Source: Candidatus Omnitrophota bacterium
GTDB taxonomy: Bacteria; Omnitrophota; Gorgyraeia; Zapsychrales; JANLHA01
Length of the DNA stretch: 64,000 bases
Assembly (NCBI GenBank): GCA_029560465.1
Contig: JAKQKX010000090.1
Location: 72,189-136,188, forward strand
Direction: 5' to 3'
The notes below the pieces were generated by a model. That model was not told the DNA's origin. It did no database searches and saw only the letters and a program-made list of their open reading frames with translations. The position numbers and the translations under genes are program-made. Below are positions 1 through 64,000 of the stretch, piece after piece; position 1 is the stretch's first letter, and each line of letters starts with the position of its first letter.

Positions 1-601
1 TGGCATTGATTAAAAGGTCCGAGATCTCCAGGTTGAGATCATCCAGGCTATGAACCACCTTAATCAGCCTTGTATCAAACCGCTGCCCCAGATCTTGAAC
101 CAGGGCCTCGGCTTTATGATGGTCGATATCATAAATCAGGACGGCTTCCGGCCGTTCCGGGACAAGGCACAAAACAGTGACGATCGCCCTGGCGGCTCCG
201 CCGGCGCCCAGGATGGATACCCGTTTGCCGGCCGTGTTAAAACCCAGTTCGGTCAGATGCGTCAAGAACCCCGGGCCGTCCGTGTTGTGTCCGGTTAATT
301 GTCTTTTCGCAGAAACCACCACGGTGTTCACCGCCCCGACCTTTTCCGCAAAAGGCGACAGGCTGTCCATATAAACGAGGACTTTCTCCTTATATGGCAC
401 GGTCACGTTCAAGCCGAAAATCGGGCTGCCGTCTTTTTTTAAATCAGAGAAGAACGGCTCCAGCTCGCCTTCCTGAAGCGGAAACAGCTTATAGACAGCG
501 TCCACTCCCAGTTCCTGAAAAGCGGCGTTATGCATAAGCGGGGAGAGAGAATGTTGAACAGGATACCCCACCAACCCGTATGTCGATTTATATTGTTCCA
601 T
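1..601 (-). CDS. aroE: shikimate dehydrogenase; start codon at 601, C-terminus runs off the window start
   Basis: The minus-strand translation from the ATG at 601 reads MEQYKSTYGLVGYPVQHSLSPLMHNAAFQELG...GLNVTVPYK, matching the AroE N-terminus and the substrate-binding motif. The frame stays open to position 1. Confidence 0.8.
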   Translation of the reverse strand, partial: MEQYKSTYGLVGYPVQHSLSPLMHNAAFQELGVDAVYKLFPLQEGELEPFFSDLKKDGSPIFGLNVTVPYKEKVLVYMDSLSPFAEKVGAVNTVVVSAKRQLTGHNTDGPGFLTHLTELGFNTAGKRVSILGAGGAARAIVTVLCLVPERPEAVLIYDIDHHKAEALVQDLGQRFDTRLIKVVHSLDDLNLEISDLLINA

Positions 602-612
602 GATTTATATCA

Positions 613-634
613 GGCCGGCCTCAAAAAAGGCCGG
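613..634. terminator. GC hairpin (CCGGCC / GGCCGG stem with a tcaaaaaa loop) between the leuA stop and the aroE start
   Basis: The inverted repeat is visible directly in the sequence. On the minus strand the T-run sits inside the loop, so this is not a canonical rho-independent terminator. It could be a terminator or attenuator-like element. Confidence 0.25.
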
Positions 635-668
635 AGAAGGGGAAGCATTTTAAAAGCCTCAAGAAACC

Positions 669-2234
669 TTAAACGTTGGCGCGCTTGTCTTCAGTTAGGT
701 TATAAATATCCCCGTGGGTAAGCGCCTTGTTGATGGCCTCGATATACGCTTGAGCCGAAGCGACAATAATATCCGTGCTGGTTCCCCGGGCCGTGACAAT
801 TTTGTCATTCACTTTAACCCGGATCGTCACCTCCCCCAACGCGTCTTTCCCCTGGGTGACGGACTGAATAGAATAATCCAGCAATTTCCCTTTGATCTTT
901 GTGATGGCATCAATGGCCTTATAACAGGCGTCGACCGGACCGTCACCGGAGGAAACCTTGGTATACTTCCGGCCTTTGGATTTTAATACAATTTTAACTT
1001 CCGAGGTGATCTTCGCCCCGCTGGTTGTGATAAGGTCATCCAAGGACCAGATCCGCTTCGTAACCTTGATTTCATCTTCGACAATCGCAATCAAATCTTC
1101 ATCAAAGACCTGCTTCTTTTTATCCGCCAAAACCTTAAACCGCTCAAACGCGATGTCCAGCTGATCCTCTTTGAGTTCGATCCCCAAGGACTTCAGCCGG
1201 ACTTTAAAAGCGTGACGCCCGGAATGTTTTCCCAGGACCAGCCCGGTCCCCACGAACCCCACATCCTCCGGGCTCATAATCTCATACGTTGACCGCTCTT
1301 TTAATATCCCGTCCTGGTGAATCCCCGCCTCATGCCGGAACGCGTTGCTCCCGACAATCGCTTTATTCGGGGGAACGAGAAACCCGGTAAACCTGGACAC
1401 CAGCCGGGAAGCCTTGCAGATCTCACGGGTGTTAATGTTCGTCGAACACCCATAAAAATCCGCCCGGGTCCGCAGGGCCATCACAATTTCTTCCATCGAG
1501 GCGTTTCCGGCCCGCTCTCCGATCCCGTTGATCGTGCACTCCACCTGACGGGCGCCATTTTTGACCGCCATGAGAGAATTGGCCACGCCTAATCCCAGGT
1601 CGTTATGGCAATGCACGGAAATAACCGCTTTATGGATATTCGGGACATTATTTTTAATATCCGCGATAAGCTGGCCGTATTCCGCCGGCATGCTGTAGCC
1701 GACCGTGTCCGGGATATTCACGGTTTGAGCCCCGGCCTTGATCACCTCTTCCAAAATACGGAAGAGGAACTCCCGCTCCGTGCGCGAGGCGTCTTCCGGA
1801 GAAAACTCGATATCCGCAATTTTCGTTTTCGCGTATTGGACCGCGTCCACCGCCATCTGGACGATCTCTTCTTTACTTTTTTTCAACTTATGCTCCATAT
1901 GAATCTTGGACGTGGCCAAGAACACGTGGATCCGCCCGTTCTGGGCCCCCTTGACCGCGTCATACGCCGCGTCAATATCCTTCTTGATGGACCGGGCCAG
2001 ACCGCAAACAACAGCATTCTTGATTTTTTTCGCCACGTTACTAACCGAGTCGAAATCCCCGGGGGAAATCACCGGGAACCCCGCCTCGATGATGTCCACA
2101 CCGAGCTTTTCCAACTGCAGGGCGACCTCGAGTTTCTCGCTCATATTCATGCTAGCGCCAGGCGCCTGCTCCCCGTCCCGCAGCGTGGTGTCAAAAATCA
2201 ATACTTTATCAGCTTTCGTCATGTTCTGTCCCAT
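669..2234 (-). CDS. leuA: 2-isopropylmalate synthase
   Basis: The 521-aa product has an N-terminus IFDTTLRDGEQAPGASM and the HxH and GIGERAGN motifs of the DRE-TIM metallolyase family. It carries a C-terminal LeuA dimerisation/regulatory domain and is collinear with E. coli LeuA along its full length. Confidence 0.85.
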   Translation of the reverse strand: MGQNMTKADKVLIFDTTLRDGEQAPGASMNMSEKLEVALQLEKLGVDIIEAGFPVISPGDFDSVSNVAKKIKNAVVCGLARSIKKDIDAAYDAVKGAQNGRIHVFLATSKIHMEHKLKKSKEEIVQMAVDAVQYAKTKIADIEFSPEDASRTEREFLFRILEEVIKAGAQTVNIPDTVGYSMPAEYGQLIADIKNNVPNIHKAVISVHCHNDLGLGVANSLMAVKNGARQVECTINGIGERAGNASMEEIVMALRTRADFYGCSTNINTREICKASRLVSRFTGFLVPPNKAIVGSNAFRHEAGIHQDGILKERSTYEIMSPEDVGFVGTGLVLGKHSGRHAFKVRLKSLGIELKEDQLDIAFERFKVLADKKKQVFDEDLIAIVEDEIKVTKRIWSLDDLITTSGAKITSEVKIVLKSKGRKYTKVSSGDGPVDACYKAIDAITKIKGKLLDYSIQSVTQGKDALGEVTIRVKVNDKIVTARGTSTDIIVASAQAYIEAINKALTHGDIYNLTEDKRANV

Positions 2235-2285
2235 TATCCAAAAGACTTAGGGCATTGAAGCCATTGGCTCCCCTGCCACAAATCC

Positions 2286-3278
2286 TTATTTCTTCATCCA
2301 GGGCATCATGGCGCGCAACTGTTCGCCAATTTTTTCGATCGGATGATTCTTGCCCTCACTGCGCATTTTATTAAAATTCGGCCGGCCTTTTTTATTTTCC
2401 CGCATCCATTCCCGGGCGAACTTCCCTGATTGTATTTCCTTCAGGATTTTCTTCATTTCCTTGTGCGTACGGTCATTGATAATACGCTTGCCCCGGCTAT
2501 AATCCCCGTATTCCGCGGTATCCGAAACCCGTTGGCGCATCCCCTGCATTCCGTATTCATAAATTAAATCCACGATAAGCTTGAGTTCATGACAACATTC
2601 AAAATAAGCAATTTCCGGCTGATAACCCGCTTCCACGAGTGTTTCAAAACCCGCTTTCACCAGCTCCGAAGCGCCCCCGCACAAAACCGTCTGTTCCCCA
2701 AAAAGGTCGGTTTCGGTTTCTTCCTTAAATGTGGTTTTCAGAACCCCGGCCCGGCTGCCTCCGATCCCTTTCGCATAAGCCAGCGCGTCCTGCAAGGCGT
2801 GTCCGGACGCATCCTGGTGAATCGCCACCAGACAGGGAACCCCCTTGCCTTCTTCATATTGACGCCGGACCAACGCCCCAGGCCCCTTCGGGGCGATCAT
2901 CCAAACATCCACATCCGGAGGAGGGACAATCTGTTTAAAATGGATATTAAACCCGTGGGAGAAAACCAACGCCTTCCCCGCGGTTAAATTCCGCTTAATC
3001 GCCTTTTTGTAAAGCGTCGCCTGGATATGATCCTGGGTCAAAATCTGGATAATATCCGCTTTCTTGGCCGCTTTTTTGGCATCAACCGGCGTAAAACCGT
3101 CCGCCACCGCGGTCTTATAATTCTCCGTGCCTTCCAGTTCGCTCACGATCACTTTCAGCCCGCTGTCACGCAGGTTGAGCGCCTGCCCCCGACCCTGAAT
3201 ACCGTAACCGATAATCGCGATCGTGCGGGCCTTGATACTGTCCAAGTTTGCATCCTTGTCATAATAAATCTTTGCCAT
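2286..3278 (-). CDS. ilvC: ketol-acid reductoisomerase
   Basis: The 330-aa product starts [40 protein letters not shown], a Rossmann fold, and the remainder matches the KARI family. It lies directly upstream of leuA. Confidence 0.9.
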
Positions 3279-53480: not shown

Positions 53481-54091
53481 AACGAATATTTGCTTCTTTT
53501 AACGGATTTCTTGATATTCTTCTGGCCGATCCAGACCTTCTGGTTCGTCTCAATATCGACAAGCTCGAGATTAACCTGATACAGGATGACATACCGCCCC
53601 GACACTTCATCCTTGACGGAATTGATACTCCCCAGCACGATAAAGTCAGCCCCGGTCTCTTTGCCGAACACCTTAATCGTGGCAGGATCAGTATAGCCTT
53701 CCTGCTGGGATGACCGTTCATCCCGGACAGCATCCCGCTCCTCGCCCTTAGCCGCGACGAACTTGATCTTCCCGGAATTCAGGAGGTTCCTTTCCAAGTC
53801 TTTAATAAACACAGCGGCGTTAATATGCTCATGACTGCGGTTCGTGACCGGGCCGACGACCACCACCGGAAGGCGTTTATGGATCTCCATAAATGTTTGA
53901 CTCCAAGGTCGAAACAACGCGTCCTGGATCATCTCTTTGGCAACTAGCTGCGAATCCGAATCATTCCAGCGGCCGCTGAGGTCAACGACCTCTTCAGGGT
54001 TAAGGCGTTTGACGCGTTTAGAAGCGCATCCCGGAAACGAGACCAAAGACAAGGCCAGAATGGCCACCCCAAAAATCTTTATATGACGCAT
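53477..54091 (-). CDS. lpoB: penicillin-binding protein activator LpoB-like lipoprotein
   Basis: The 204-aa product has a lipobox (FPGCAS). A DLSGRWNDSD block and a C-terminal FIVLGSI...YQVNLELVDIETNQKVW block match the COG3417/LpoB pattern. Confidence 0.65.
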   Translation of the reverse strand: MRHIKIFGVAILALSLVSFPGCASKRVKRLNPEEVVDLSGRWNDSDSQLVAKEMIQDALFRPWSQTFMEIHKRLPVVVVGPVTNRSHEHINAAVFIKDLERNLLNSGKIKFVAAKGEERDAVRDERSSQQEGYTDPATIKVFGKETGADFIVLGSINSVKDEVSGRYVILYQVNLELVDIETNQKVWIGQKNIKKSVKRSKYSL

Positions 54092-54132
54092 ACCCCTCTC
54101 CTATGTTAGAAATCCTTACACACTGTTATCGG

Positions 54133-54696
54133 TTATTTCCCGTTACGGATAATAAAACTGTCAGGATAAGCTTTCTTGACTTGAGGCAAATATTTATCCG
54201 CTTCTTCTTTTGTATTAAAAGTCCCGACATAAATCCGGTGCCACAGGCCTTTATCACCCAAATCTTTGGTCGCGAGATACGCCGTAGGGTACCCGGAATC
54301 CTTGATTTTCTTCAAAGCCTCTTGAGCCCGGAGCTGATCTTTGGAAGACAGCACCTGGATCGTAAACGGGATCTTTGAAAAATCTTTCTGGTCAAGGTCT
54401 TGAGGCTTGAGCGCCGGCGGGCTGCCGGCCGGCTTCTCGGCAGGCGGGGGGACAACCGGGGCAGCGGTCGAAACCAGCGTCGGGGTTCTTTCTAAAGGCG
54501 CGGCCACGCTGCCGTCGGACTGTACGAATTCATATTCAATAGCGGGTTCCAACTCGCTTTCATCTTCCGTGAAAACTTCTCCCAAAGGCAGCACATCCTG
54601 TCCGCTCTGGTAATTAAACGTAACCAGAACCAAAACCACGACCCCCACTACGATGAACCAGATCAACCATTGATTTTTCATAAGACACCTCCTCAA
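54133..54696 (-). CDS. SPOR domain protein
   Basis: The 187-aa product has an N-terminal TM and a Pro-rich linker. The C-terminal SPOR fold reads FTIQVLSSKD...YPTAYLATKDLGDKGLWHRIYVGTF. Confidence 0.7.
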   Translation of the reverse strand: MRRCLMKNQWLIWFIVVGVVVLVLVTFNYQSGQDVLPLGEVFTEDESELEPAIEYEFVQSDGSVAAPLERTPTLVSTAAPVVPPPAEKPAGSPPALKPQDLDQKDFSKIPFTIQVLSSKDQLRAQEALKKIKDSGYPTAYLATKDLGDKGLWHRIYVGTFNTKEEADKYLPQVKKAYPDSFIIRNGK

Positions 54697-54789
54697 AGAC
54701 CTAAAATTTAATATTGTCTATTTTGCGGGATATAATATTTTAACCTCTTGTATGATACCGCTCAACCCTCTTCTGTTCAACCCCGAAAT

Positions 54790-55629
54790 CTAAAATAATT
54801 CGTTCTGATACCCGGGCCCCACGGGCGGAGCTTCAAAATGGCCTGTTTTGGGCAGGGTCGGGGGTTGTGGGAAATGCCCTTCCAGAGCGCCTTCAACGAG
54901 GTCTTTAATCTCGTCGGTAAAATTCTGGGTCAGGATCCATTCCAAATATTTGCGGTCTTTTTGCGCAATGGTTTTCAACCCTTCCTTCCGGGCATATTTC
55001 CCAAACATCATGTACAATTCTCCGTTCCACCAGCGGAACTTACGGCCGGTATCATAAAAATCCGTCCGTTGCTTATAATCAAAACCCTGCAGGGCGTCCA
55101 AGTTCTCCGCTCCCCGCCCATATTTATTCAACTGGGCGGCCAGGACTTCAAGGGTCGCCTCAGAATCGACGATGGCGGAATGCGCCCCCTCCAGCTCTTT
55201 ATGGCAATAAAAATTGTAAGCGGCCGTCAGGTCCCGCCGTTCGTGCAGGTGATAAATCTTCTGGGCGTCATAAACCGCCCGCCGGGAATAGTCAAATTTG
55301 ATCCCGGCATCCGAAAATTCTCTCGTCAAAAGCGGCAAATCAAACCGCTCGATGTTGAATCCAGCCAGATCCGCGTCGGCCAGGAACTCCAGGACTTCTC
55401 CGGCGATCTGCCGGAAATAAGGGGCGTCCCTCACGTCGTCATTGTTGATCCCGGTCACCTCGACCACTTCAGGAGGAATGGGCATCCCGGGATTCACCCT
55501 TTTCTCATAAGAAAGACGCCCGCCGTCGGCAAGGCACCGGATCATCCCGACTTCTATAATCCGATCCTTGTCGATCCAGGTCCCGGTCGTCTCAAGGTCC
55601 AGCACAACCAAAGGTCGTTGAAGCTTCAT
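54790..55629 (-). CDS. DnaQ-like 3'-5' exonuclease (DEDDh) with a C-terminal extension
   Basis: The 279-aa product has an Exo I motif VVLDLETTG, an Exo II motif AGFNIERFDLPLL and an Exo III motif HSAIVDSEA. Confidence 0.75.
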   Translation of the reverse strand: MKLQRPLVVLDLETTGTWIDKDRIIEVGMIRCLADGGRLSYEKRVNPGMPIPPEVVEVTGINNDDVRDAPYFRQIAGEVLEFLADADLAGFNIERFDLPLLTREFSDAGIKFDYSRRAVYDAQKIYHLHERRDLTAAYNFYCHKELEGAHSAIVDSEATLEVLAAQLNKYGRGAENLDALQGFDYKQRTDFYDTGRKFRWWNGELYMMFGKYARKEGLKTIAQKDRKYLEWILTQNFTDEIKDLVEGALEGHFPQPPTLPKTGHFEAPPVGPGYQNELF

Positions 55630-55711
55630 AAAATCTCCTCATGTTTCCTCTGACGGGTTAACCGAACGGCGCATTGATGTTCAGCCGCCGTTCCGTCGGA
55701 CGCCCGCCAGA

Positions 55712-56980
55712 TCAAGGTCCGGCGGGCGTATACCAGCCAAACGTATTCCCTTCTTTTTCATTAGCGAGAAGGCCGATCTTCCCAGTCTGGGGTTCCAGGA
55801 CCAGCAACCCCAGGAAATAATGCTCCATCACCACATAACGACCGCTGGGTGTCCAGCGCATATGCTTGATCGCCAGTTCCCCACCGCTATATTGATACCG
55901 GGGGATATCGCTCCTGCGGGGAACACGGGGAATGCGGAACAATTTCCTTCGCCACCAGCGGTTATGGATATAATAAAGATAATCAAAATCATCAACCCCG
56001 ATCCTAGCGCCCTGCGCGGATATCCGAGAAAAGTGCTTCTTCCCCTCCTGGCCGAACGACAGGTCCTGCCCCCTGGTAAAAATATCAATCCCGCGCAAAG
56101 AGAGGTTCTCTTGAGGGAGCTTTTGTTCATCAAAAGGGAACATGATGATCAATTCCGGTTTCAGCGTCGTCAAGGGGATCTGATAAACTTTCACCTCATA
56201 CGGGTTAGCGTACACCGTCGTATCCAATGCGTTGAACCAGAGGTTGTAAAGGTGCTCTCCCTTCTTGTCCCACAGCAGGGCGTTTATCTTCAACGCCGGG
56301 CTCTTGAGCATCTGCTTGGATTGATCGGCCAGGTTGTAAATAATCCAATGATCTATCGATGAAAATTCGGTCCATCTCGCGACATGGTAACAAAAGCGCC
56401 GGCTGTCCGGGCCCCAGACGACACCATCAACGACCCCCTTGACGGCACCAGGGGGCTCGTCACCCTGGGCCAAAATTTCGATCTCCCGGCGGCTCTGGTC
56501 TCTCTGATGGAGGGCCCACAAGCCGCTTTCCGTCGCGATCAGCACATGCATCCCGTCCGGGGAAAAATGATACGTCCGCACCGCGCCCGCCGATTCAAAC
56601 ACAACCTCCCGCTGCGTGCCATTGGCGTTCATCCGCACCAACTGGTTCTCGTGGATAAAATAGATCTTCAAATCTTCTTCCACCCACTCCGTTGTGGGGG
56701 TGACCTTGTAAGAAAAATCCAAAGATGCCTTTTCGACAAGGTTGACCATATAACTATAAAACGTCAAGGCGATGAGCAGGGCAAACCCGGCCAAAAGGCA
56801 ATAATGCAGCACATGATTGACCGTTTGGACAACCACCTTGCGCCTGATCCGCCGTAAAAAAAGGGTCAGGACAATCGACCCGAGTCCGGCCACGTAGAGA
56901 ATCAAGATAAGCAGAATATGCTCAAAATGGCTGTTAATAAAATCAATGACCTGTTTGAAAAAAGAAATAATCAGTTCCAT
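55712..56980 (-). CDS. membrane-anchored putative beta-propeller protein
   Basis: The 422-aa product has two N-terminal TM helices. It then shows a beta-strand-rich repeat pattern (W/Y-rich), like TolB/WD40-type propellers. No family was recognised. Confidence 0.4.
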   Translation of the reverse strand: MELIISFFKQVIDFINSHFEHILLILILYVAGLGSIVLTLFLRRIRRKVVVQTVNHVLHYCLLAGFALLIALTFYSYMVNLVEKASLDFSYKVTPTTEWVEEDLKIYFIHENQLVRMNANGTQREVVFESAGAVRTYHFSPDGMHVLIATESGLWALHQRDQSRREIEILAQGDEPPGAVKGVVDGVVWGPDSRRFCYHVARWTEFSSIDHWIIYNLADQSKQMLKSPALKINALLWDKKGEHLYNLWFNALDTTVYANPYEVKVYQIPLTTLKPELIIMFPFDEQKLPQENLSLRGIDIFTRGQDLSFGQEGKKHFSRISAQGARIGVDDFDYLYYIHNRWWRRKLFRIPRVPRRSDIPRYQYSGGELAIKHMRWTPSGRYVVMEHYFLGLLVLEPQTGKIGLLANEKEGNTFGWYTPAGP

Positions 56981-57024
56981 AATGTTCTCTCATTAAATAT
57001 TCCGGGCGCTGCCCCCTCCTCCCG

Positions 57025-58980
57025 TCAGGGCATGGCGTAGTCATCGCAGTCCGACTGCACGTCCACATAGCGGTGCAAGATATTGCCTTCGGCGAGAAAG
57101 CGGGACAAGCGCGTGTACACATATCCGGAATAGGACAGCCCCCCGCGCGCCGGCCTGTCAACCTGAGGCCGGAGAAGAAACAGATGCTCCTTGGCCCGTG
57201 TCATCGCCACGTAAAGCAACCGGCGCTCTTCTTCCACGCCTTCAGCATTATTCAAAGACTGATAAGACGGGAGGTACCCTTCCGCCACAAAAAGGATAAA
57301 AACCGTATGCCATTCCAGTCCTTTGGCAGAGTGGATCGTCGACAAAACAAGGTGGGGCTGCCGCGGGGCGCGCCGCTCTTTCTCAACCCGGTCCTTTTCC
57401 GGAGGGTCCAGGGCAATATCCGCCAGGAATTGCTCTAAAGAATCATACCGGCCCGCGATGTGCTGCAAAGATTCCAGGTCATTGACCCTCTTGTCAAAAT
57501 CATCATACACGTCCGGCATGAGGGAAAGATAAAATCCCAACACGAAATCAAGGAGCTCCGCTGGCTTCTGCTGTTGGGGGTCGCTTTTCTTAAAAAGATC
57601 CATGAGCTTGAGAACGCTGTCCTTAGGTTTCAGCCGGGATAAATCAGCTTGAAAACCCTGTTTTTGAGCAACGATTTCCTGAGTGATCCGGCGGGCGGTC
57701 TGCGGCCCCACCCCGCGCAGAAGCCCCAGGACCCTCATCCAGCTAAGGTCATGATACGGTTGGGACAAAATCCGCAAAAAGCTGATCACGTCCTTAATAT
57801 GCGCGGACTCGACAAATTTCTGGCCTCCGTATTTCATAAAAGGGACCCCCCATCTGGTCAATTCCACTTCGAGATCATTGGAATGCCAGCCGGAACGGAA
57901 CAAAACCGCGATCTCCTTATAAGGCACCCCCTCTTCGTGCAGACGCGTGATCTGATTCACCACGAATTTGGACTGGCTGTTTTCATTCGGGACGTCCACA
58001 TAAACCGGCAACCCGGCCCCGGGCCGGTCGGAAAACAACTGTTTCTCATACTTTTCCGACGCGGCCTGAATCAGCTGATTGGTTAAATCAAGAATCGGCT
58101 GAGAGGACCGGTAGTTTTGCTCTAAAAGAATGACACGCGTTTCCGGGAACATCTGCGGGAATAAAATGATATTTTTGTAATGCGCGCCACGGAACGAGTA
58201 AATGCTCTGCGCATCATCCCCCACCACCATGATATTCTGATGAGACGACGCCAGCATCTGGACAATCTCGGCCTGAATTTTATTGGTGTCCTGGTATTCA
58301 TCGACCATAATGTACGGATAAGACAAAGAAAGTTTCTGGCGCAGGGTAGGGTTATCGGAAAGCAGCTGCTTCAACAAAACCAAGAGATCATCAAAATCCA
58401 GCAACGACTGCTGGCGTTTATACCCCGTGTACTCTTCCGCGATCCGGCGAATTTCCGGGAGCCAAGCCAGGAAATGCGGGTAATCTTTACACAACACGCT
58501 TTCAAAATCTTCATCGCGGTTGACGCTCGATGACAAAATCGACATCAAAGCCTCTTTCTTGGGGAAACGGCGGTCCAGTTTATCCATCCCCAGACGGATC
58601 CTCAGGCTTTGCAAAGCGCTCTGGGCGTCACTCTGGTCCATAATGATAAAACGGGAATCCAGCCCCACATATTCACCGTAACGCCTTAAAAGCGCATTGG
58701 CAAAAGAATGGAACGTTCCTCCCGTAACATGCTCGCATCGGGCATCCAGGATCATCGAGGCTCTTTTAAGCATCTCCTGGGCGGCCCGGCGGGTAAAAGT
58801 GAGGAGCAGCACCTCTTCAGGATTAACCCCTTGTTCGATCAGATAGGCGGTGCGATAAATAAGCACCCGGGTTTTCCCGGAGCCTGCTCCGGCAATAACC
58901 AAATATGGGCCATCCACAGAAGTGGCCGCTTTATACTGGGCAGGATTCAGTTCCTGCTGGTAATTGATCTTTAAAGACAT
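57025..58980 (-). CDS. uvrD: ATP-dependent DNA helicase, UvrD/Rep/PcrA family
   Basis: The 651-aa product has motif I AGAGSGKT, motif II DEYQDTN, motif V STIHSAKGLEW and motif VI LYVAMTRAKEHL. Confidence 0.85.
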   Translation of the reverse strand: MSLKINYQQELNPAQYKAATSVDGPYLVIAGAGSGKTRVLIYRTAYLIEQGVNPEEVLLLTFTRRAAQEMLKRASMILDARCEHVTGGTFHSFANALLRRYGEYVGLDSRFIIMDQSDAQSALQSLRIRLGMDKLDRRFPKKEALMSILSSSVNRDEDFESVLCKDYPHFLAWLPEIRRIAEEYTGYKRQQSLLDFDDLLVLLKQLLSDNPTLRQKLSLSYPYIMVDEYQDTNKIQAEIVQMLASSHQNIMVVGDDAQSIYSFRGAHYKNIILFPQMFPETRVILLEQNYRSSQPILDLTNQLIQAASEKYEKQLFSDRPGAGLPVYVDVPNENSQSKFVVNQITRLHEEGVPYKEIAVLFRSGWHSNDLEVELTRWGVPFMKYGGQKFVESAHIKDVISFLRILSQPYHDLSWMRVLGLLRGVGPQTARRITQEIVAQKQGFQADLSRLKPKDSVLKLMDLFKKSDPQQQKPAELLDFVLGFYLSLMPDVYDDFDKRVNDLESLQHIAGRYDSLEQFLADIALDPPEKDRVEKERRAPRQPHLVLSTIHSAKGLEWHTVFILFVAEGYLPSYQSLNNAEGVEEERRLLYVAMTRAKEHLFLLRPQVDRPARGGLSYSGYVYTRLSRFLAEGNILHRYVDVQSDCDDYAMP

Positions 58981-59150
58981 GGCGGATATTATAACACACG
59001 TACCGCGTGTTGGGACTGGCTATACTCAAGAAAATATCAGAGACAGTAACGATGGGTGCGATTCCGTGACGGCCTGTATTCCGGATAAACATTAATGAGG
59101 ACCATACGTTGAGCCGTATTGCCTTGCCTACATATTTTTGAAATGCAGCA

Positions 59151-59741
59151 CTACCGCCCTCTGGTTTTGTGCGTTGAAAGTTCTTTCAGCTTTTCCTCTT
59201 TAAGGCGGATCTGTTTTTTGATCTCGTCCGCCTCCTTCTCCACGTTGCGACTACTTTCCTCCAGGAGGCTCAATTTCCCATCCAATTCTTTAATCATCTT
59301 TTCCTTCTTCTTAATCTGACCGACCGATTCTTCCTGCTTCGCGGAAAGCGTCATTAATTTCTCTTGGTACTGTCCATAATTTTCCTGCGTCTGCCAATAT
59401 TCCTGGTTTAATCGTACGCTTTCCGATTCATATTCTTTCAAATGGCTCTGCAGTTTTGCGGTCTCATCCTGCAAAAGGTCTCTTTGGGCCTTAAGGGAGA
59501 TCCTTTTCCCTTCAAGCTCTCTTAACTTTTTAATCAAGGTGTACCGGCTATGCTGATAACTGGTAATTTCATACTCAATTTGTTTTTTGGCTTCCTGTTG
59601 CTGACTATAATTATCCCATAATTTATCATATCGTTGTAACTGCTGAAGGTACAAGCTATCCTCTTCTTCTTGTGCTTCCACCACGAATGTTGCTGTGCTA
59701 AAGACGCTAATAAATAATATGAATATTAATAACTTTTTCAT
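59151..59741 (-). CDS. secreted coiled-coil protein
   Basis: The 196-aa product has a signal peptide (MKKLLIFILFISVFSTATFVVEA), then a continuous heptad-rich helix. The gene and its upstream region are markedly AT-rich. Confidence 0.5.
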   Translation of the reverse strand: MKKLLIFILFISVFSTATFVVEAQEEEDSLYLQQLQRYDKLWDNYSQQQEAKKQIEYEITSYQHSRYTLIKKLRELEGKRISLKAQRDLLQDETAKLQSHLKEYESESVRLNQEYWQTQENYGQYQEKLMTLSAKQEESVGQIKKKEKMIKELDGKLSLLEESSRNVEKEADEIKKQIRLKEEKLKELSTHKTRGR

Positions 59742-59830
59742 TTATACACTCCTTTTAAATAAAATATATACTCTATTTAAATTAGAAAATATTATATAAC
59801 AAGTTTAACAGGTAAAAAGGAGTTTCGCAA

Positions 59831-60433
59831 TTAATTAAGTTTGCGGATGACACTGATCACTTTCCCGATCAGCACCACATCTTCGTTGACAGGAATAGGC
59901 TCATACTGCGGATTAGCCGGTTCAAGGAAATAATGCCGACCGCGTTTCCGGAGATATTTCACAGTCGCCTCATCCCGGATAAGGGCAACCACAATCTCCC
60001 CGGTCTGGGCCACGGCCTGGCGTTTGACCAGCACCAAGTCATCAGGGAAAATCCCCGCCCCATTCATACTGTCTCCCCGGACGCGCAAGGCGAATGTGTT
60101 GCTGTCTGAAAAAACCAGGCTGTCGAGATCAAGATACCCTTCAATCTCCTCGACCGCAAGCGTGGGAAGTCCCGCCTGGACCCGGCCAAGGATAGGGATT
60201 TGGAAAAGATTTTCCTTAATAATTTCAATAGCCCGGGATTTATTGGCTGAAACGCGAATGTAGCCTTTCTCAACTAAAGCGTGCAGGTAATCCCGGACCG
60301 TCCCAGTTGACGAAAACCCAAATTGGGCCGCAATCTCCCGGACAGTTGGAGGCAGCTGGGATTGCTTTATTCTTTTATAAATAAATTTAAAAACATCCTT
60401 TTGTTTGTCCGTAAGCTGGGCACTTTTATTCAT
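59831..60433 (-). CDS. lexA: LexA repressor
   Basis: The 200-aa product has an N-terminal winged HTH (LTDKQKDVFKFIYK...VREIA). The C-terminal S24 peptidase domain carries the Ser of GDSM and a downstream Lys (LIGKV). Confidence 0.9.
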   Translation of the reverse strand: MNKSAQLTDKQKDVFKFIYKRIKQSQLPPTVREIAAQFGFSSTGTVRDYLHALVEKGYIRVSANKSRAIEIIKENLFQIPILGRVQAGLPTLAVEEIEGYLDLDSLVFSDSNTFALRVRGDSMNGAGIFPDDLVLVKRQAVAQTGEIVVALIRDEATVKYLRKRGRHYFLEPANPQYEPIPVNEDVVLIGKVISVIRKLN

Positions 60434-60445
60434 GGGAAAATGTTA

Positions 60446-60461
60446 CCACCCATAAGTGTGG
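60446..60461. promoter_or_regulatory. candidate LexA operator: palindrome CCAC-N8-GTGG, 13 bp upstream of the lexA start
   Basis: CCACCCATAAGTGTGG was read directly in the sequence. Its position suits autoregulation, but the motif does not match any LexA box I can name. Confidence 0.25.
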
Positions 60462-60621
60462 ATGTCAAGCCGATTTTCAAAATGGCAAACATAGATATTT
60501 AACCCGTTCGGCATTAAAGAATTTCTTAAAAAAAAAGGCGATCATCCCAATTTTAGGATAAAATAAATTTGTTCTCTAAGGACCTCCGGGCATAAACCAA
60601 CCCGGCACAATATCGATTGTC

Positions 60622-61062
60622 ATGAGTGAAATTCGGGATGAAATAAGATTTATCGAACTGGTGGGGCTTGTCAAACACCTGAATGATCTGGCCACGCGCT
60701 GGGTGATAGGGTATTTTGTGATCCAAAGCGGAATACTCATTGCCGAGGCCGCGTTTATTTCAAGAGATCCGATCGTCGGGAACCCGGTTCTCCTGATCTT
60801 CCTGGTCCTGGCCCTGGCGATTTTTGCTATCGCCTGTTCAGAAACCATAACCCGTATCCTTGTCCGGAACCGGTTTTGGCTCCGGCATTACATTTCTGAA
60901 GCGATCCGGATCGAAGGCAAAAACGGCATCTGGCTCGAAAAATTTTCCCCACCCGGAAAAAGCCTGGACCAGCAATTCATTTTTCTGAATAATTGTCTTG
61001 TGGTGGGATGGATCCTTTTTGTGTTCACTTTCTTATATTCAGGCATCCGAACCCTGTTGTGA
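60622..61062 (+). CDS. hypothetical integral membrane protein
   Basis: The 146-aa product has 3-4 predicted TM helices and is transcribed divergently from lexA. Confidence 0.4.
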   Translation: MSEIRDEIRFIELVGLVKHLNDLATRWVIGYFVIQSGILIAEAAFISRDPIVGNPVLLIFLVLALAIFAIACSETITRILVRNRFWLRHYISEAIRIEGKNGIWLEKFSPPGKSLDQQFIFLNNCLVVGWILFVFTFLYSGIRTLL

Positions 61063-61086
61063 CCGGTTAACCGTCACCCCCCGTCA

Positions 61087-61674
61087 TTGGAGGAAAATAT
61101 TATGGCGACAGCACCAGCCACCGTTAAGGGATTGATTATCAACGGTACGATCCGCTTTCTAAAAGAAACATATGGAGAAGCAGGGTTCCAGAAATTTTTG
61201 GATAAAACCCCGGAAGAAGACCGCAAAGTCTGGACCGAACAGCAAATATTGGCTGTTTCCTGGGTTCCGGCTGTCATCTATAAGAATGCCTACGAAACCA
61301 TCGAAAGCATTTGGGGTAACGGCGACGGGAAAACATTTGAAAAAGTGGCCGGCATTGTTGCGTTTTATGACTTAAGCACCACAATGAAATTTTTCATGAA
61401 GATCGGCAGCCCGGGGTTCGTGGCCCAACGCTTCCCCAGTGTGTGGAAGAAATATTTCAGCGCGGGGGTTGCCAGAATCCTTCATATAACCGGCAATGAG
61501 ATGGAAATGGTCCTGGAAGGAGCGGAGGGATACGGGTTAGCCGGATGTGCCGGAACTTTGGGGTGGACCCGCGCCGCACTTGAATTCGCCGGAGCGAAGA
61601 ATCTTAAATTAACCCAAAAACAATGCCTCAGGAACGGAGACCCTCGGTGCCATTACGTTTATCTTTGGGAATAA
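61087..61674 (+). CDS. V4R-like / DUF2378-like small protein
   Basis: The 195-aa product ends with GCAGTLGWTRAALEFAG...CLRNGDPRCHYVYLW. This repeats the G...C...GD..C.F pattern of the V4R protein at 26606, so the two are paralogue-like. Confidence 0.4.
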   Translation: MEENIMATAPATVKGLIINGTIRFLKETYGEAGFQKFLDKTPEEDRKVWTEQQILAVSWVPAVIYKNAYETIESIWGNGDGKTFEKVAGIVAFYDLSTTMKFFMKIGSPGFVAQRFPSVWKKYFSAGVARILHITGNEMEMVLEGAEGYGLAGCAGTLGWTRAALEFAGAKNLKLTQKQCLRNGDPRCHYVYLWE

Positions 61675-61715
61675 TTTCCATCCCCCCACCCCCAACAACA
61701 TCCCGTTCCGGACCC

Positions 61716-64000
61716 CTACTCGACAGGGACATCGGAAGCTGTGACCAACCCCAAACGGGCAGGAAGGACATCTTCGCCTGAAATGACATCAAGAATAATG
61801 GGCAAGAATCCGCTGACATCAACCTCTTCAACGGACTGTTTCGCTAATGGAAGCGGGACCCCGCGTCCGTCCCGTTTGATCTGCAAATCGAGCGCCACCG
61901 GGTTAAGATTAATACCCCCGAGCGGCAGTTCAGCGGTTATCCCGTTTCGGGCCGCCTGGATCGCCGATGACACCGTCATATCCTTCTGAGTCAAGGACCG
62001 CATTATCATCTCCACCCGAGGCCCCTCTATGTCCTGAACAATGCTCAACACCCGGACCGAAACGGCTTCTTCCGCCGGCTCCACCCCGGGCTGGACAAAA
62101 ACGCCATTCGCGCTGATGAAAGAAAAAGCCCCGAGAATTCGCCCTTTAACATCCTCATCGGTAAAAAGCTTCTTCCCGGAAAGAATTTGTTGGGCGTCCT
62201 CCGGCCGCAGACTCGTGATATCCGACACTTCTTGAGAAGTAAAAGCATATCGCCGGGAATGATCTTTCATCACTTCTCCGGAGGGTTTATGGTTCAACTG
62301 GGCGCTATAAACCCTCAACCCGCCCACAGCCCCCACCGATTTCAATGCCCCCGCCACCGCCAGGGTCATAAACCCCTCCGCCGAGCCCCCGATAGTCAAA
62401 AGTGTTTTATGCATGCCGTACGGCGCCCCGGTGGCCGCCTCGTACATCTCACGGGTCATAGCCGCTTTCAACCCATGCATCACCGTCCCGTCAGGAATCG
62501 TGGTAACTTTTAACCCTTCTATCCGGTAAGCGGTTTTAATTTCGTCCAGAGCCTCCAGCATCTGCGTTTCCCGGTCACGGTCCATCAGGAGGATTTCCTC
62601 CCGGAGGGCCGAAAGTTCCTGACCGCGTGTCTCAGCCAGAAATTTCAAATATTCAATGATCAGCCCGGGATACCGGGCGTAAAGCTCGGGGTCTTTCATG
62701 GAATATTCGACCTCGACCCCTTGCTCCCTCACCCGAATCACCCGCTGATTAAAAACGGCCACAGCGGCTTCGTCCCCCAAGTTCGTTATAAACTGTCCCA
62801 CATAACCGTCCGGAGCATTGCCCAAATCCCGAACCCCCAGCCCGGTGACAATAACACTGGTCGCCCCGGACTCATAATCGGGGATGTCCAGCAATGTTTT
62901 ACCCTCGGCATTCGTCACAAACTGGTTGGTCCCTTCCACCACGTCAATGATGGCGTCCACGATCGGATAAAGTTTGCCCGAACGTGCCCGGTAAAACTCG
63001 GCGTTTTCCTTAATGGCATTGTACACCAGGTCAATCTCGGCCTTAATCGCGACGGGCAGAATCACTTCATTGGACTTCAAGCTCTCCGCCACTTCATCCC
63101 GGCCAAACCCCTCGCTGACCCGGACCATTAAAATGATGTCATTTTCCCTGACCGTTCTTTCAAAAATCCGTTTCGCCAAAGCATCTGCGGTATCCTTAAT
63201 AGCCCGTTCCATCTGATTTAAATCTTGTGTGGTAATCCGGACATTGTCCCCATTCTTCTGAGACAGCATCCCGATCATCGCCCTTAATTCTTCCTTGTCC
63301 GTCCTGGAATACAACTCGGTGAACAAATACCGCAGAGTAAGGACCTTATCTTTCACCGACGTTTCCCTCTGCAGAATATCTTTCACCCTTTGGTAAGCGC
63401 CCCGTAATCCCAAGGCTGTCAACTCAACGGCCGCTTGGGCGGCGACGCGCTCCGGGTACTCCCTCCGGGCGCGTTCCATGCGGGCGACCGCCGCCCTCTC
63501 TTTTTCAATCGGCGAAGACACCCTGTCCCGGGCGATGTCCCCGAACAGCGCCAAAGACAGGGTTTCCACGCGCCCCACTTCTTCACTGTTAGCCCGGTCG
63601 CCGGTTTCCACCAAGGCAGAAGAAACAATCAAGGTTTCCCCCAATCGGTCAGCCAGTTGACGGGTTTCCTCTTCCCTGAGGGACGCGATCTTCGACTTGA
63701 CCCGGCTTAATTCTTTAAAAGAACTTCCCCCGGAGAAATACTTCCGCGGGATAATCTCATGAGTGTCCAGATCCAGATCTGCCCGGATATAATTAAAAAC
63801 CCCTTTCTTAAACGCTTCCAAATATCGGTTATAAATTTTCCGGCTGACTTCTTTATCCTCAATATCAATCCCGGCTACTTTCTCCTGATTCACATAAACT
63901 TTTCCAAGTAAACTTTCTTTTAAAGTATCCTTGTACCAGGACGCTAAAATAATCGCATGGTAAATCTGCCGCAGTTGGATAAAAATCCGGCCCTCATTCA
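61716..64000 (-). CDS. GlpX-like (class II fructose-1,6-bisphosphatase fold) domain protein with a long N-terminal extension; 5' end off-window
   Basis: The frame is open from 64000 down to the stop at 61716, and the track's GTG at 63893 is only the first start inside the window. The region from about aa 300 to 640 aligns by eye with E. coli GlpX: DAIIDVVEGT to DIAVDPIEGT, IPDGTV to IPDGDV, LTIGGSAEGFMTLAVAGALKSVGAVGGLRV to GIGGAPEGVVSAAVIRALDGDMNGRL. Confidence 0.5.
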   Translation of the reverse strand, partial: NEGRIFIQLRQIYHAIILASWYKDTLKESLLGKVYVNQEKVAGIDIEDKEVSRKIYNRYLEAFKKGVFNYIRADLDLDTHEIIPRKYFSGGSSFKELSRVKSKIASLREEETRQLADRLGETLIVSSALVETGDRANSEEVGRVETLSLALFGDIARDRVSSPIEKERAAVARMERARREYPERVAAQAAVELTALGLRGAYQRVKDILQRETSVKDKVLTLRYLFTELYSRTDKEELRAMIGMLSQKNGDNVRITTQDLNQMERAIKDTADALAKRIFERTVRENDIILMVRVSEGFGRDEVAESLKSNEVILPVAIKAEIDLVYNAIKENAEFYRARSGKLYPIVDAIIDVVEGTNQFVTNAEGKTLLDIPDYESGATSVIVTGLGVRDLGNAPDGYVGQFITNLGDEAAVAVFNQRVIRVREQGVEVEYSMKDPELYARYPGLIIEYLKFLAETRGQELSALREEILLMDRDRETQMLEALDEIKTAYRIEGLKVTTIPDGTVMHGLKAAMTREMYEAATGAPYGMHKTLLTIGGSAEGFMTLAVAGALKSVGAVGGLRVYSAQLNHKPSGEVMKDHSRRYAFTSQEVSDITSLRPEDAQQILSGKKLFTDEDVKGRILGAFSFISANGVFVQPGVEPAEEAVSVRVLSIVQDIEGPRVEMIMRSLTQKDMTVSSAIQAARNGITAELPLGGINLNPVALDLQIKRDGRGVPLPLAKQSVEEVDVSGFLPIILDVISGEDVLPARLGLVTASDVPVE

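What the first reader, a model, noticed from the sequence alone, without database searches (positions are those of the whole stretch)
61716..64000. GlpX-like FBPase-fold domain embedded in a protein of more than 760 aa whose N-terminus runs off the window
Stand-alone GlpX is about 330 aa. Here the recognisable GlpX blocks (D-x-x-D-x-x-EGT, IPDG, GIGG-x-EG...GG-x-RL) start only after about 300 residues of unrelated, partly coiled-coil sequence. The reading frame continues past position 64000 with no stop. This is either a new multi-domain sugar-phosphatase or a regulatory fusion. It lies immediately next to a V4R-like protein and the lexA locus.
Basis: partly seen in the sequence, partly recalled or inferred. 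Interest (0 to 1): 0.55.

Follow-up and report, generated by a model that had tools for sequence, protein, structure and literature searches.

The report
Exported GlpX-type phosphatase on Omnitrophota carrier scaffold
The gene encodes a roughly 1,028-residue signal-peptide-bearing protein of an Omnitrophota bacterium, in which a divergent but apparently intact fructose-bisphosphatase module sits between an N-terminal domain and a C-terminal tail that thousands of other Omnitrophota proteins share around different "cytoplasmic" enzymes.

Summary
The minus-strand frame ending at 61716 is open to the window edge (760 codons), and it contains a real GlpX-type (class II FBPase) fold. An AlphaFold model (pLDDT 82.7) matches only GlpX structures in the PDB (E about 1e-12).

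A 99.7 % identical contig supplies the missing 5' end. The full protein is 1,013-1,028 aa and begins with a Sec signal peptide. Its order is:
- signal peptide;
- a ~320-aa N-domain of unknown fold;
- a linker;
- a ~490-aa GlpX-like module;
- a ~65-aa C-terminal tail.

All metal, nucleophile and phosphate-pocket motifs are kept. Only IxDGD is changed, to IPDGT. That change marks a whole clade, which includes stand-alone enzymes lying in gluconeogenic gene clusters.

The N-domain and tail match nothing in Pfam, NCBIfam, PDB or BFVD. They nevertheless frame at least 11,000 protein clusters, in Omnitrophota in every locus examined (the 80 best), with swapped cargo: receiver domains, methyltransferases, GlgA, radical SAM and others.

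Most likely this is an exported, active sugar-bisphosphatase on a phylum-specific carrier. Where it acts is unresolved, because much of the family's cargo needs ATP.

It is a multi-domain phosphatase, not a regulatory fusion and not a normal glpX with an internal start.

The parts
61716..64000 (-). The 3' 2,285 nt of a gene of about 3.09 kb. It covers residues 254-1013 of the full protein P0001 plus the stop codon at 61716-61718. The start lies about 757-802 nt beyond the window end.
   Evidence: The frame is open to the window edge. Contig L001 is 99.74 % identical without gaps to window 53825-64000 and carries the whole gene at 226-3267. It also has an in-frame ATG at L001:181 preceded by AAGGAAA.
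63723..63998 (-). The last 92 residues of the conserved N-domain of the Omnitrophota carrier family (...LRQIYHAIILASWYK...IPRKYFSGG).
   Evidence: phmmer and hmmsearch of the N-domain against more than 200 paralogues give E around 1e-120. The alignment has 46 invariant residues. No Pfam, NCBIfam, PDB or BFVD relative was found.
63513..63722 (-). A 70-aa linker rich in charged residues and serine.
   Evidence: Among the regions compared it has one of the two lowest orthologue identities (66-74 %; the C-terminal tail scores 67-68 %). It is not shared with the other GlpX-like proteins.
63231..63512 (-). The helical N-terminal part of the GlpX-like module. It contains the 'AVELTALGLRG' helix, which probably corresponds to E. 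coli GlpX helix 1 (AALAGYKWLGRG), and a helical insertion of about 55 aa found only in the subclade P0001-P0009.
   Evidence: The AF2 model shows helices at 2-33, 39-48, 53-71 and 74-84 with pLDDT 75-90. Alignment A1 shows the insertion is absent from P0011-P0014. The LGLRG motif is present in the stand-alone relatives. The helix-1 equivalence is my inference from the motif.
61983..63230 (-). The GlpX-type (class II FBPase) catalytic core, 416 aa. Its motifs are KDTAD 63183-63197, SEGFGRD 63096-63116, DAIIDVVEGT 62928-62957, NAPDGY 62802-62819, RDR 62571-62579, IPDGT 62484-62498 and GGSAEG 62373-62390.
   Evidence: Foldseek against the PDB returns class II FBPases for all top 18 hits. hhalign against E. 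coli GlpX supports the alignment. Motif coordinates were verified. The motifs are conserved in 16 clade members. Motif roles are taken from PMC10289334.
61938..61982 (-). A 15-aa spacer between the catalytic module and the C-terminal tail.
61719..61937 (-). The conserved C-terminal tail of the carrier family (LGGINLNPVALDLQIKRDGRGVPLPL...GFLPIIL...).
   Evidence: The tail is present once each in 213 of 239 sampled family proteins, at the extreme C-terminus, with a median of 18 aa following it. The AF2 model of paralogue P0103 gives a beta-beta-alpha-beta-alpha unit with pLDDT up to 88. It has no Pfam or NCBIfam match.

Best explanation
Shown: the gene encodes a modular protein of about 1,028 aa from an Omnitrophota bacterium. 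It begins with a classical cleavable Sec signal peptide (KRRNR - hydrophobic core - ALA|AP). This is followed by a ~320-aa phylum-specific N-domain, a linker, a ~490-aa divergent class II (GlpX-type) sugar-bisphosphatase module, and a ~65-aa phylum-specific C-terminal tail. The N-domain and tail form a shared chassis for at least 11,000 protein clusters whose middle parts are swapped.

Inferred: the phosphatase module is catalytically active. It would hydrolyse the 1-phosphate of fructose-1,6-bisphosphate, or of a closely related sugar bisphosphate, using Mn2+ or Mg2+ held by the DVVEGT and SEG...D loops. The Thr of EGT would act as nucleophile, and the RDR pocket would hold the distal phosphate.

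Inferred with less confidence: after Sec export and signal-peptide cleavage, the chassis directs the enzyme to a post-Sec destination such as the cell surface, a secreted state or an assembly. There it would process sugar phosphates outside the producer's cytoplasm, for example from lysed or attached prey.
For: Full gene and signal peptide.

Family-wide signal peptides: of 212 complete N-termini, 197 have a strongly hydrophobic 15-residue stretch, 200 have a net-positive n-region, and the motif '..SPAYA|Q' recurs.

GlpX fold: AF2 pLDDT 82.7 and pTM 0.85. The 18 best PDB hits are all class II FBPases, with E 5e-12 to 9e-10 and target-normalised TM-score (TMt) 0.62-0.69. hhalign gives probability 95 %. 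The profile search of the PDB returns GlpX chains as its five best hits (E 0.02-0.08); the only other matches, two cytochrome f chains, are at E 0.4-0.5.

Catalytic motifs: all are kept and are invariant in 10 homologues, and conserved with only minor variants in 16 clade members. Their roles follow PMC10289334.

The DGT variant is a clade trait, not decay. Stand-alone DGT-type enzymes of 407-453 aa without signal peptides pass PF03320. One of them lies in a GAPDH-PPDK-aldolase-GlpX cluster.

Fusion evidence for FBP as substrate: the same module is fused to class II FBP aldolase or to PGI in P0006, P0007, P0009 and P0011-P0013. It also sits next to PPDK and TIM-PGK genes.

Chassis.

Orthologues keep the whole architecture at 66-90 % identity per region.

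Literature: FBPase-, FBA-, PGI- and TPI-like domains have been reported in predicted extracellular parts of giant Omnitrophota proteins (10.1101/2023.11.21.568195).
Against: PF03320 scores only 16 bits against a cut-off of 27.

The third residue of the sugar-hydroxyl motif IxDGD is Thr.

The model has pLDDT below 50 at 135-142 and 193-207, which covers the two catalytic loops. The alignment behind it had only 10 sequences.

The equivalent of E57 is ambiguous. Reading by motif gives E134; hhalign in global mode gives E159.

No substrate for an FBPase is known in a periplasm or in the medium.

Much of the cargo in the same family and in neighbouring genes (PPDK, PGK, GlgA, radical SAM, receiver, GGDEF, HTH) needs ATP, SAM or DNA. 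This argues against simple extracytoplasmic function.

No activity, localisation or expression data exist.
Confidence: 0.6

Rival explanations
1. Effector reading. The chassis is a delivery device. The GlpX-like enzyme, like the other cytoplasm-type cargo, is transferred into the cytoplasm of a prey or host cell. There it rewires sugar-phosphate metabolism to the benefit of the epibiont.
For: The signal peptide is paired with cargo that needs ATP, SAM or DNA. Omnitrophota are proposed predators or parasites (PMC10066038). The family is large, diversified, multi-copy and arranged in tandem arrays, as effector repertoires typically are.
Against: No secretion or injection machinery is linked to the family genes. 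Sec export followed by delivery into another cell has no demonstrated route here. Gluconeogenic enzymes are unusual effectors.
Confidence: 0.12
2. Cytoplasmic or membrane-tethered reading. The N-terminal hydrophobic segment is not cleaved, or the protein is retained. In that case the module is the organism's working gluconeogenic FBPase, organised on a membrane-associated scaffold.
For: The cargo repertoire is of cytoplasmic type. Neighbouring SP-PPDK and SP-TIM-PGK proteins need nucleotides. West-Roberts et al. warn that the extracellular call for such domains may be a topology artefact. Stand-alone clade members are cytoplasmic.
Against: The N-termini have short h-regions, positive n-regions and AxA sites. 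They are therefore signal peptides rather than anchors, and the charge bias places the bulk of the protein outside. The same chassis also carries extracytoplasmic-type cargo, namely GH26 and LysM.
Confidence: 0.13
3. Pseudoenzyme reading. The GlpX fold is reused as a sugar-phosphate or carbohydrate binding module, or as a structural module, without catalysis.
For: The Pfam score is below the cut-off. DGD is changed to DGT. The catalytic loops are modelled with low confidence. The location is odd for an FBPase.
Against: Every metal, nucleophile and phosphate-pocket residue is invariant in the ten closest homologues, with only minor variants among the 16 clade members, at 37-84 % overall identity. 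The DGT clade includes stand-alone enzymes in gluconeogenic clusters. The most conserved block of the domain is the catalytic loop VRVSEGFGRD.
Confidence: 0.12
4. An ordinary glpX with an internal start. The upstream frame would be non-coding or belong to a separate gene.
For: None beyond the size mismatch with the 330-aa GlpX.
Against: There is no SD sequence before the only nearby Met. No promoter-like site exists on the minus strand inside the gene. The single ORF of 1,013-1,029 codons is kept in three complete orthologues, and a fourth lacks only the signal peptide; the three compared are 66-90 % identical in every region. The upstream part is a domain shared with thousands of proteins.
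Confidence: 0.01

Closest known systems
Class II fructose-1,6-bisphosphatase GlpX (E. coli 3D1R/2R8T, M. tuberculosis 6AYY/7TXB, F. tularensis) and the cyanobacterial dual FBP/SBPase (3RPL, 5A5L)
   Same: The fold is the same (Foldseek E about 1e-12, TMt 0.62-0.69). The following are shared: the M1 metal motif D-x-x-E-G-T with the Thr nucleophile, the upstream Glu loop, NAPDxY, the Arg-x-Arg phosphate pocket (literally RDR, as in F. tularensis) and GGxxEG.
   Different: Sequence identity is 14-17 %. The module is about 490 aa rather than about 330 aa, owing to helical and loop insertions. IxDGD is changed to IPDGT. The protein carries a signal peptide and the module is embedded in a 1,028-aa protein. 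The PF03320 score is below the Pfam cut-off.
Stand-alone 'DGT-type' long GlpX proteins annotated as class II FBPase in Patescibacteria and Omnitrophota MAGs (P0247-P0251)
   Same: They are 37-43 % identical over about 90 % of the core. All catalytic motifs match, including DGT and the N-terminal LGLRG helix. P0247 lies in a GAPDH-PPDK-aldolase cluster.
   Different: They are 407-453 aa and mostly lack a signal peptide. They have no N-domain, no C-tail and no 55-aa helical insertion.
Giant Omnitrophota proteins ('Archaeovorins', West-Roberts et al. 2023 bioRxiv; 2026 preprint 10.64898/2026.06.07.730766)
   Same: Same phylum. They carry signal peptides or TM segments, and the same unusual domain repertoire is placed outside the cytoplasm by prediction: FBPase, FBA, PGI, TPI, PGM, PPDK, starch synthase, methyltransferase, HATPase, GNAT, receiver and radical SAM.
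   Different: Those proteins are 10,000-147,000 aa with many TM helices. This one is about 1 kaa with a single cargo module between a defined N-domain and C-tail. Neither paper describes such a chassis. Whether the giants start or end with these elements was not testable here.
Type IX secretion cargo (signal peptide + variable passenger + ~80-aa C-terminal domain). This is an architectural analogy only.
   Same: A Sec signal peptide, a variable passenger and a short conserved domain at the extreme C-terminus, shared by many proteins of one phylum.
   Different: No Pfam or NCBIfam match of any kind, and so none to a T9SS CTD model, was found. The predicted tail is a beta-beta-alpha-beta-alpha unit rather than a 7-strand sandwich. 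A conserved 320-aa N-domain is also present. The phylum is Omnitrophota, not Bacteroidota.

Membership tests
Class II FBPase / GlpX (PF03320, TIGR00330) | Sequence match to the family HMM above the curated cut-off | tested here: not met
   PF03320 scores 16 bits, E 0.0056, against a cut-off of 27 on P0001, and gives no hit on the 760-aa window fragment. NCBIfam gives none. Homologues at 41-47 % identity do pass, with 31-48 bits.
Class II FBPase / GlpX | GlpX fold | tested here: met
   The AF2 model has pLDDT 82.7. The top 18 Foldseek PDB hits are all class II FBPases at E 5e-12 to 9e-10, and the next hit is at E 0.1.
Class II FBPase / GlpX | M1 metal site and nucleophile motif D-P-x-E-G-T-T (F. 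tularensis 84-90) | tested here: met
   The sequence is DVVEGTN at window 62928-62948. The Asp, Glu and Thr residues align with E. coli D85, E88 and T90. They are invariant in 10 homologues.
Class II FBPase / GlpX | Upstream Glu (E57) loop that completes metal coordination | tested here: inconclusive
   The invariant block VRVSEGFGRD follows the equivalent strand, so by motif the residue is E134. hhalign in global mode instead pairs E57 with the invariant E159. An acidic residue is present under either reading.
Class II FBPase / GlpX | Arg-x-Arg pocket for the 6-phosphate (RPR or RDR) | tested here: met
   RDR at 62571-62579 aligns with E. coli K164-P-R166. R-x-R is conserved in 15 of 16 clade members.
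Class II FBPase / GlpX | IxDGD motif contacting the furanose hydroxyls | tested here: not met
   The sequence is IPDGT. The last Asp is replaced by Thr in all 16 clade members, including the stand-alone enzymes.
Class II FBPase / GlpX | Second metal site and 6-phosphate contact (D116, Y118, E214 in F. tularensis numbering) | tested here: met
   NAPDGY and GGSAEG align with E. coli NAPDMY and GGAPEG.
Class II FBPase / GlpX | FBP hydrolysing activity dependent on Mn2+ or Mg2+ | not testable with these tools
   Only indirect support is available: fusions with FBA and PGI, and gluconeogenic neighbourhoods of clade members.
Omnitrophota N-domain/C-tail carrier family (undescribed; defined here) | Cleavable Sec signal peptide, then the ~320-aa N-domain (WVNLSPxE, GRDLLxxDYxLKQ, PRKYFSGG) | tested here: met
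   For P0001 and L001. The window itself holds only the last 92 aa of the N-domain. For family statistics.
Omnitrophota N-domain/C-tail carrier family | Single C-terminal tail GGI(D/N)xN...LQIKRDGxGVPLP...GFxPxI within the last ~70 residues | tested here: met
   Window 61719-61937.
Giant Omnitrophota proteins (Archaeovorins) | Length of tens of thousands of residues with many TM helices | tested here: not met
   The protein is 1,013-1,028 aa and has no hydrophobic segment other than the signal peptide.
T9SS cargo | C-terminal domain matching the Por secretion tail models | tested here: not met
   No Pfam or NCBIfam hit was found on the tail or on the whole protein.

The most novel reading that the evidence does not exclude
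The N-domain and C-tail together form a previously undescribed, phylum-wide sorting, display or delivery system. Through it, Omnitrophota would place a whole repertoire of 'cytoplasmic' enzymes outside their own cytoplasm. The repertoire includes gluconeogenic enzymes such as this FBPase, and at least 11,000 protein clusters use the chassis. The enzymes would end up on the cell surface, in a polymeric assembly, or inside prey cells. Some sugar-phosphate metabolism of these ultra-small predators or parasites would then be carried out extracellularly or in the victim.
Probability: 0.3. Interest if true: 0.85.

Novelty: new variant of a known kind. Interest (0 to 1): 0.62.

Why it matters
Omnitrophota are uncultured, ultra-small, probably predatory or parasitic bacteria. 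Their famous giant proteins are too large to study biochemically. This gene is a tractable version of about 1 kaa showing the same puzzle: a central-metabolism enzyme behind a textbook export signal.

It has a single cargo domain with readable catalytic motifs, so activity and export can be tested in E. coli.

Following this one gene also exposed a very large family of at least 11,000 clusters at 50 % identity. Up to 8 of the 80 best loci came from a single genome, and several loci hold tandem arrays. The family is built on a conserved N-domain and C-tail that have no relative in Pfam, NCBIfam, PDB or BFVD. I could not find them described in the papers I searched.

Knowing what this chassis does would help explain how these organisms interact with other cells. 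It would also help resolve whether their apparent 'extracellular glycolysis/gluconeogenesis' is real.

Tried and rejected
- Internal start giving a normal glpX. Rejected: there is no SD or promoter, and the upstream protein is conserved.
- Regulatory fusion. Rejected: no regulatory domain is detected.
- The N-domain as a known fold. Foldseek against the PDB and BFVD gives nothing at E <= 0.001. The profile search of PDB sequences gives only coiled-coil noise in the variable middle. This also speaks against an HK97/encapsulin-type shell, which both libraries contain in abundance.
- T9SS-type CTD or other curated sorting signals for the tail. No Pfam or NCBIfam hits.
- A conserved partner gene, such as a dedicated transporter or protease, next to family genes. 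None was found in 80 loci. Only an ABC-F ATPase (11 loci) and generic two-component proteins (12 loci) recur.
- Other family members, or a second GlpX, in the 64-kb window. None.
- GlpX-like cargo elsewhere in the chassis family. It occurs only in this orthologous group.
- Literature on the chassis. Four full-text searches, including the motif strings themselves, found nothing.
- Docking of the C-tail on the N-domain could not be checked, because no coordinates or PAE are returned.
Full report
OBSERVATION. On the minus strand, the frame that stops at 61716-61718 has no stop codon up to base 63998, which gives 760 codons. The ORF listing shows it as a 725-aa ORF from a GTG at 63893. That is only the first start codon inside the window. 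GC skew is negative across the region, as in the neighbouring minus-strand genes.

RECOVERING THE WHOLE GENE. A homology search found a protein that matches the window's 760-aa fragment at about 100 % identity (they differ at one residue) and is complete at 1,013 aa (P0001). It also found orthologues at 78-84 % identity of 986-1,029 aa, two of them on contigs of 228 and 584 kb. The contig that encodes P0001 (L001, a JGI metagenome) is 99.74 % identical to window 53825-64000 without gaps. It extends 982 nt beyond the window edge.

The called start is at L001:226. An in-frame ATG lies 15 codons upstream at L001:181 and follows AAGGAAA. Using it gives MRSFFQKRRNRYCPT-MVFVAVSLAIVPLLAPSMALA|AP, which has a positive n-region, a hydrophobic core and an AxA site. 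The gene is therefore about 3.09 kb, and its first 757-802 nt lie off the window.

THE GlpX-LIKE MODULE IS REAL. Plain HMM searches are weak:
- The window fragment has no Pfam, NCBIfam or PDB sequence hit to GlpX.
- Full-length P0001 hits PF03320 at 16 bits, against a cut-off of 27.

Three independent lines settle the matter:
- A profile built from ten homologues (alignment A1) returns class II FBPases as its five best PDB matches, at E 0.02-0.08; the only other matches are two cytochrome f chains at E 0.4-0.5.
- hhalign of A1 against E. coli GlpX gives probability 95 %, E 3e-8, over GlpX residues 80-224.
- An AlphaFold model of window residues 163-692 has pLDDT 82.7 and pTM 0.85. Its 18 best Foldseek hits in the PDB are all class II FBPases from E. 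coli, M. tuberculosis and cyanobacteria. They score E 5e-12 to 9e-10 and TMt 0.62-0.69, and the next hit is at E 0.1.

CATALYTIC RESIDUES. The motif roles described for the class (PMC10289334) map as follows:
- The M1 site and nucleophile DPLEGTT is DVVEGTN here.
- NAPDxY and GGxxEG, which form the second metal site and the 6-phosphate contact, are present.
- The Arg-x-Arg pocket is RDR.
- The N-terminal KxxAD helix is present.
- The catalytic loop after the first strand is VRVSEGFGRD, the most conserved block of the domain.

The only departure is IxDGD changed to IPDGT. The exact equivalent of E57 is ambiguous: E134 by motif, E159 by hhalign in global mode. Both residues are invariant. The model is of low confidence (pLDDT below 50) at 135-142 and 193-207. 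Those segments are the flexible catalytic loop and a 12-residue insertion after the nucleophile helix.

A DISTINCT 'DGT' CLADE OF LONG GlpX ENZYMES. Searching with the core alone found stand-alone proteins of 407-453 aa at 37-43 % identity. All carry PF03320, and two are named class II FBPase by NCBI. Most have no signal peptide. All 16 clade members examined carry DGT, and all but two carry every other motif; P0248 lacks a GG..E match and P0251 an R-x-R match.

One stand-alone member, from a MAG labelled Patescibacteria, lies directly after GAPDH, PPDK and a DeoC-type aldolase. In Omnitrophota the module is repeatedly fused to class II FBP aldolase (P0006, P0007, P0011, P0012, P0013) or to PGI (P0009). 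In one genome the signal-peptide GlpX-FBA protein is followed by a 1,486-aa PPDK protein and a TIM-PGK protein of more than 1,123 aa. Both of those also begin with signal-peptide-like N-termini.

These fusions and neighbourhoods are the best available evidence that the substrate is FBP or a close analogue, and that DGT is a clade trait rather than decay. The reference size for this clade is about 430 aa, not 330 aa. The 'extra' helices just upstream of the core include the clade's own LGLRG helix, plus a 55-aa insertion restricted to the subclade P0001-P0009.

WHAT THE REST OF THE PROTEIN IS. Splitting P0001 into segments showed which parts recur elsewhere. More than 100 other proteins of about 1 kaa, all from Omnitrophota sources where named, share only residues ~30-345 (E around 1e-120). 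Most of them also share the last ~65 residues, and nothing in between.

A profile of the two conserved parts finds 11,008 representatives of 50 %-identity clusters among 1.84 billion proteins. Of these, 6,851 have E <= 1e-30, and the 150 best listed range in length from 572 to 2,676 aa. It also finds at least 592 loci in species-representative genomes. The 80 best are all Omnitrophota MAGs, although some are labelled Planctomycetales or Elusimicrobia. Up to 8 of these 80 loci come from one genome.

In these loci the N-domain always starts at residues ~35-70. The tail always ends within ~20 residues of the C-terminus. Tandem arrays of two or three family genes are common. The tail occurs once each in 213 of 239 sampled proteins.

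Of 212 complete N-termini, 197 have a strongly hydrophobic 15-residue stretch and 200 have a net-positive n-region. The c-region is often ..SPAYA|Q, a signal peptidase I site. The family therefore carries cleavable Sec-type signal peptides and is predicted to be exported.

THE CARGO. The middle parts are unrelated to each other, with 7 % mean column identity. Most have no Pfam match. Those that do carry receiver, HATPase, GGDEF, cNMP-binding, HTH, RNAP alpha-CTD, methyltransferase, GNAT, radical SAM, DnaJ, aminotransferase, UDPGP, glycogen synthase, phosphoglycerate mutase, HEAT, WD40, LysM or GH26 domains. GlpX-like cargo occurs only in the window's orthologous group.

THE CHASSIS HAS NO KNOWN RELATIVE. 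The N-domain has 46 invariant residues in an alignment of 46 family proteins, including WVNLSPxE, GRDLLxxDYxLKQ and PRKYFSGG. A model of paralogue P0103 has pLDDT around 90 over the N-domain, which consists of two beta-hairpins and long helices. The tail reaches pLDDT up to 88 as a beta-beta-alpha-beta-alpha unit.

Nothing related was found:
- Foldseek finds nothing in the PDB or BFVD at E <= 0.001.
- Pfam, NCBIfam and a profile search of PDB sequences find nothing.
- No conserved neighbour gene exists.

A short DxAM motif is about 30-fold enriched in the linkers. It typically occurs right after the N-domain and right before the tail. The window protein lacks it.

LITERATURE. West-Roberts et al. 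(bioRxiv 10.1101/2023.11.21.568195) report TPI-, PGI-, FBPase-, PGM- and FBA-like domains in predicted extracellular parts of giant Omnitrophota proteins. They suggest these pre-process sugars, and they caution about topology errors.

A 2026 preprint (10.64898/2026.06.07.730766) finds the same Pfam repertoire in 916 long proteins, 94 % of which have a signal peptide or TM helices. Neither paper describes the N-domain/tail chassis. The motif strings occur in no paper of the library. Omnitrophota are argued to be mostly predators or parasites (PMC10066038).

MECHANISM. Shown: the architecture, the fold, the motif conservation, the signal peptides, and the size and taxonomic restriction of the family.

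Inferred: the module is an active metal-dependent sugar-bisphosphate 1-phosphatase of the GlpX type. The protein crosses the inner membrane by Sec and is cleaved. The chassis determines its later destination.

Unresolved: where it acts. A periplasm or the medium offers no ATP, SAM or DNA for much of the family's cargo. However, FBPase, FBA, PGI and the mutases need only metals, so they could work outside the cell.

The alternatives cannot be excluded with these tools: delivery into prey, retention at the membrane, or a non-catalytic role.

VERDICT. The finding is real, and it is more interesting for its context than for the fusion itself. It is a new variant of a known enzyme kind, mounted on an undescribed, very large, phylum-specific carrier architecture.

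Noticed in passing
L087:8001-19279 (GCA_028715785.1, Omnitrophota MAG): Three consecutive large genes all begin with signal-peptide-like N-termini: GlpX-like+FBA-like (1,092 aa), PPDK (1,486 aa) and TIM+PGK (more than 1,123 aa, cut by the locus end). In each, a short D/S-x-LR-(P/T) motif follows the N-terminus. They lack the N-domain and C-tail. This looks like an 'exported' gluconeogenic gene cluster, even though PPDK and PGK need nucleotides.
   Followed up: partly
L084:719-8515 (GCA_024239015.1, MAG labelled Patescibacteria): A stand-alone 429-aa DGT-type GlpX without a signal peptide lies directly downstream of PPDK and a DeoC-family aldolase, with GAPDH a few genes further upstream. This is a compact gluconeogenic cluster.
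   Followed up: partly
Family linkers, e.g. P0036, P0122, P0154 (protein coordinates): The short motif D-x-A-M is roughly 30-fold enriched in the variable regions of the carrier family. It typically occurs just after PRKYFSGG and immediately before the GGID of the tail. It may be a processing site or a linker motif. It is absent from the window protein.
   Followed up: partly
L023, L033, L036, L041, L043, L060, L061, L005: Two or three carrier-family genes lie head-to-tail in tandem arrays. One MAG (JABDGZ01) contributes 8 of the 80 best loci.
   Followed up: partly
L030:5929-13074 and L071:5956-13158: Family ORFs that begin with the N-domain are still open after more than 2,380 codons at the end of the fetched locus. 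Some members may therefore be very long and could link the family to the giant Omnitrophota proteins.
   Followed up: no
It is conserved next to the gene in L001 and L002.
   Followed up: partly
window 57025-60433 (-): Three genes lie here: a UvrD-family helicase (651 aa, 57025-58980), a 196-aa coiled-coil protein with a signal-peptide-like N-terminus (59151-59741), and lexA (59831-60433). The same order is kept in the 78-82 % identical contig L002.
   Followed up: no
P0006 (1,060 aa on a 3,201-bp contig): The ORF fills the whole contig and reads GlpX-like (C-terminal part) - class II FBA - GlpX-like (N-terminal part). This implies tandem GlpX-FBA units in a larger multi-enzyme protein.
   Followed up: no
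Loci L005, L008, L013, L015-L019 and others; L083; L034: Many MAGs that carry this Omnitrophota-specific family are titled 'uncultured Planctomycetales'. One is titled 'Elusimicrobia' and one 'Elulimicrobium'. At least the Planctomycetales and Elusimicrobia titles probably reflect labelling rather than a wider distribution.
   Followed up: no
11 of 80 family loci (e.g. L083:1260-3260): An ABC-F type ATPase of about 667 aa recurs next to family genes. This is probably synteny within one orthologous group rather than a functional partner.
   Followed up: no
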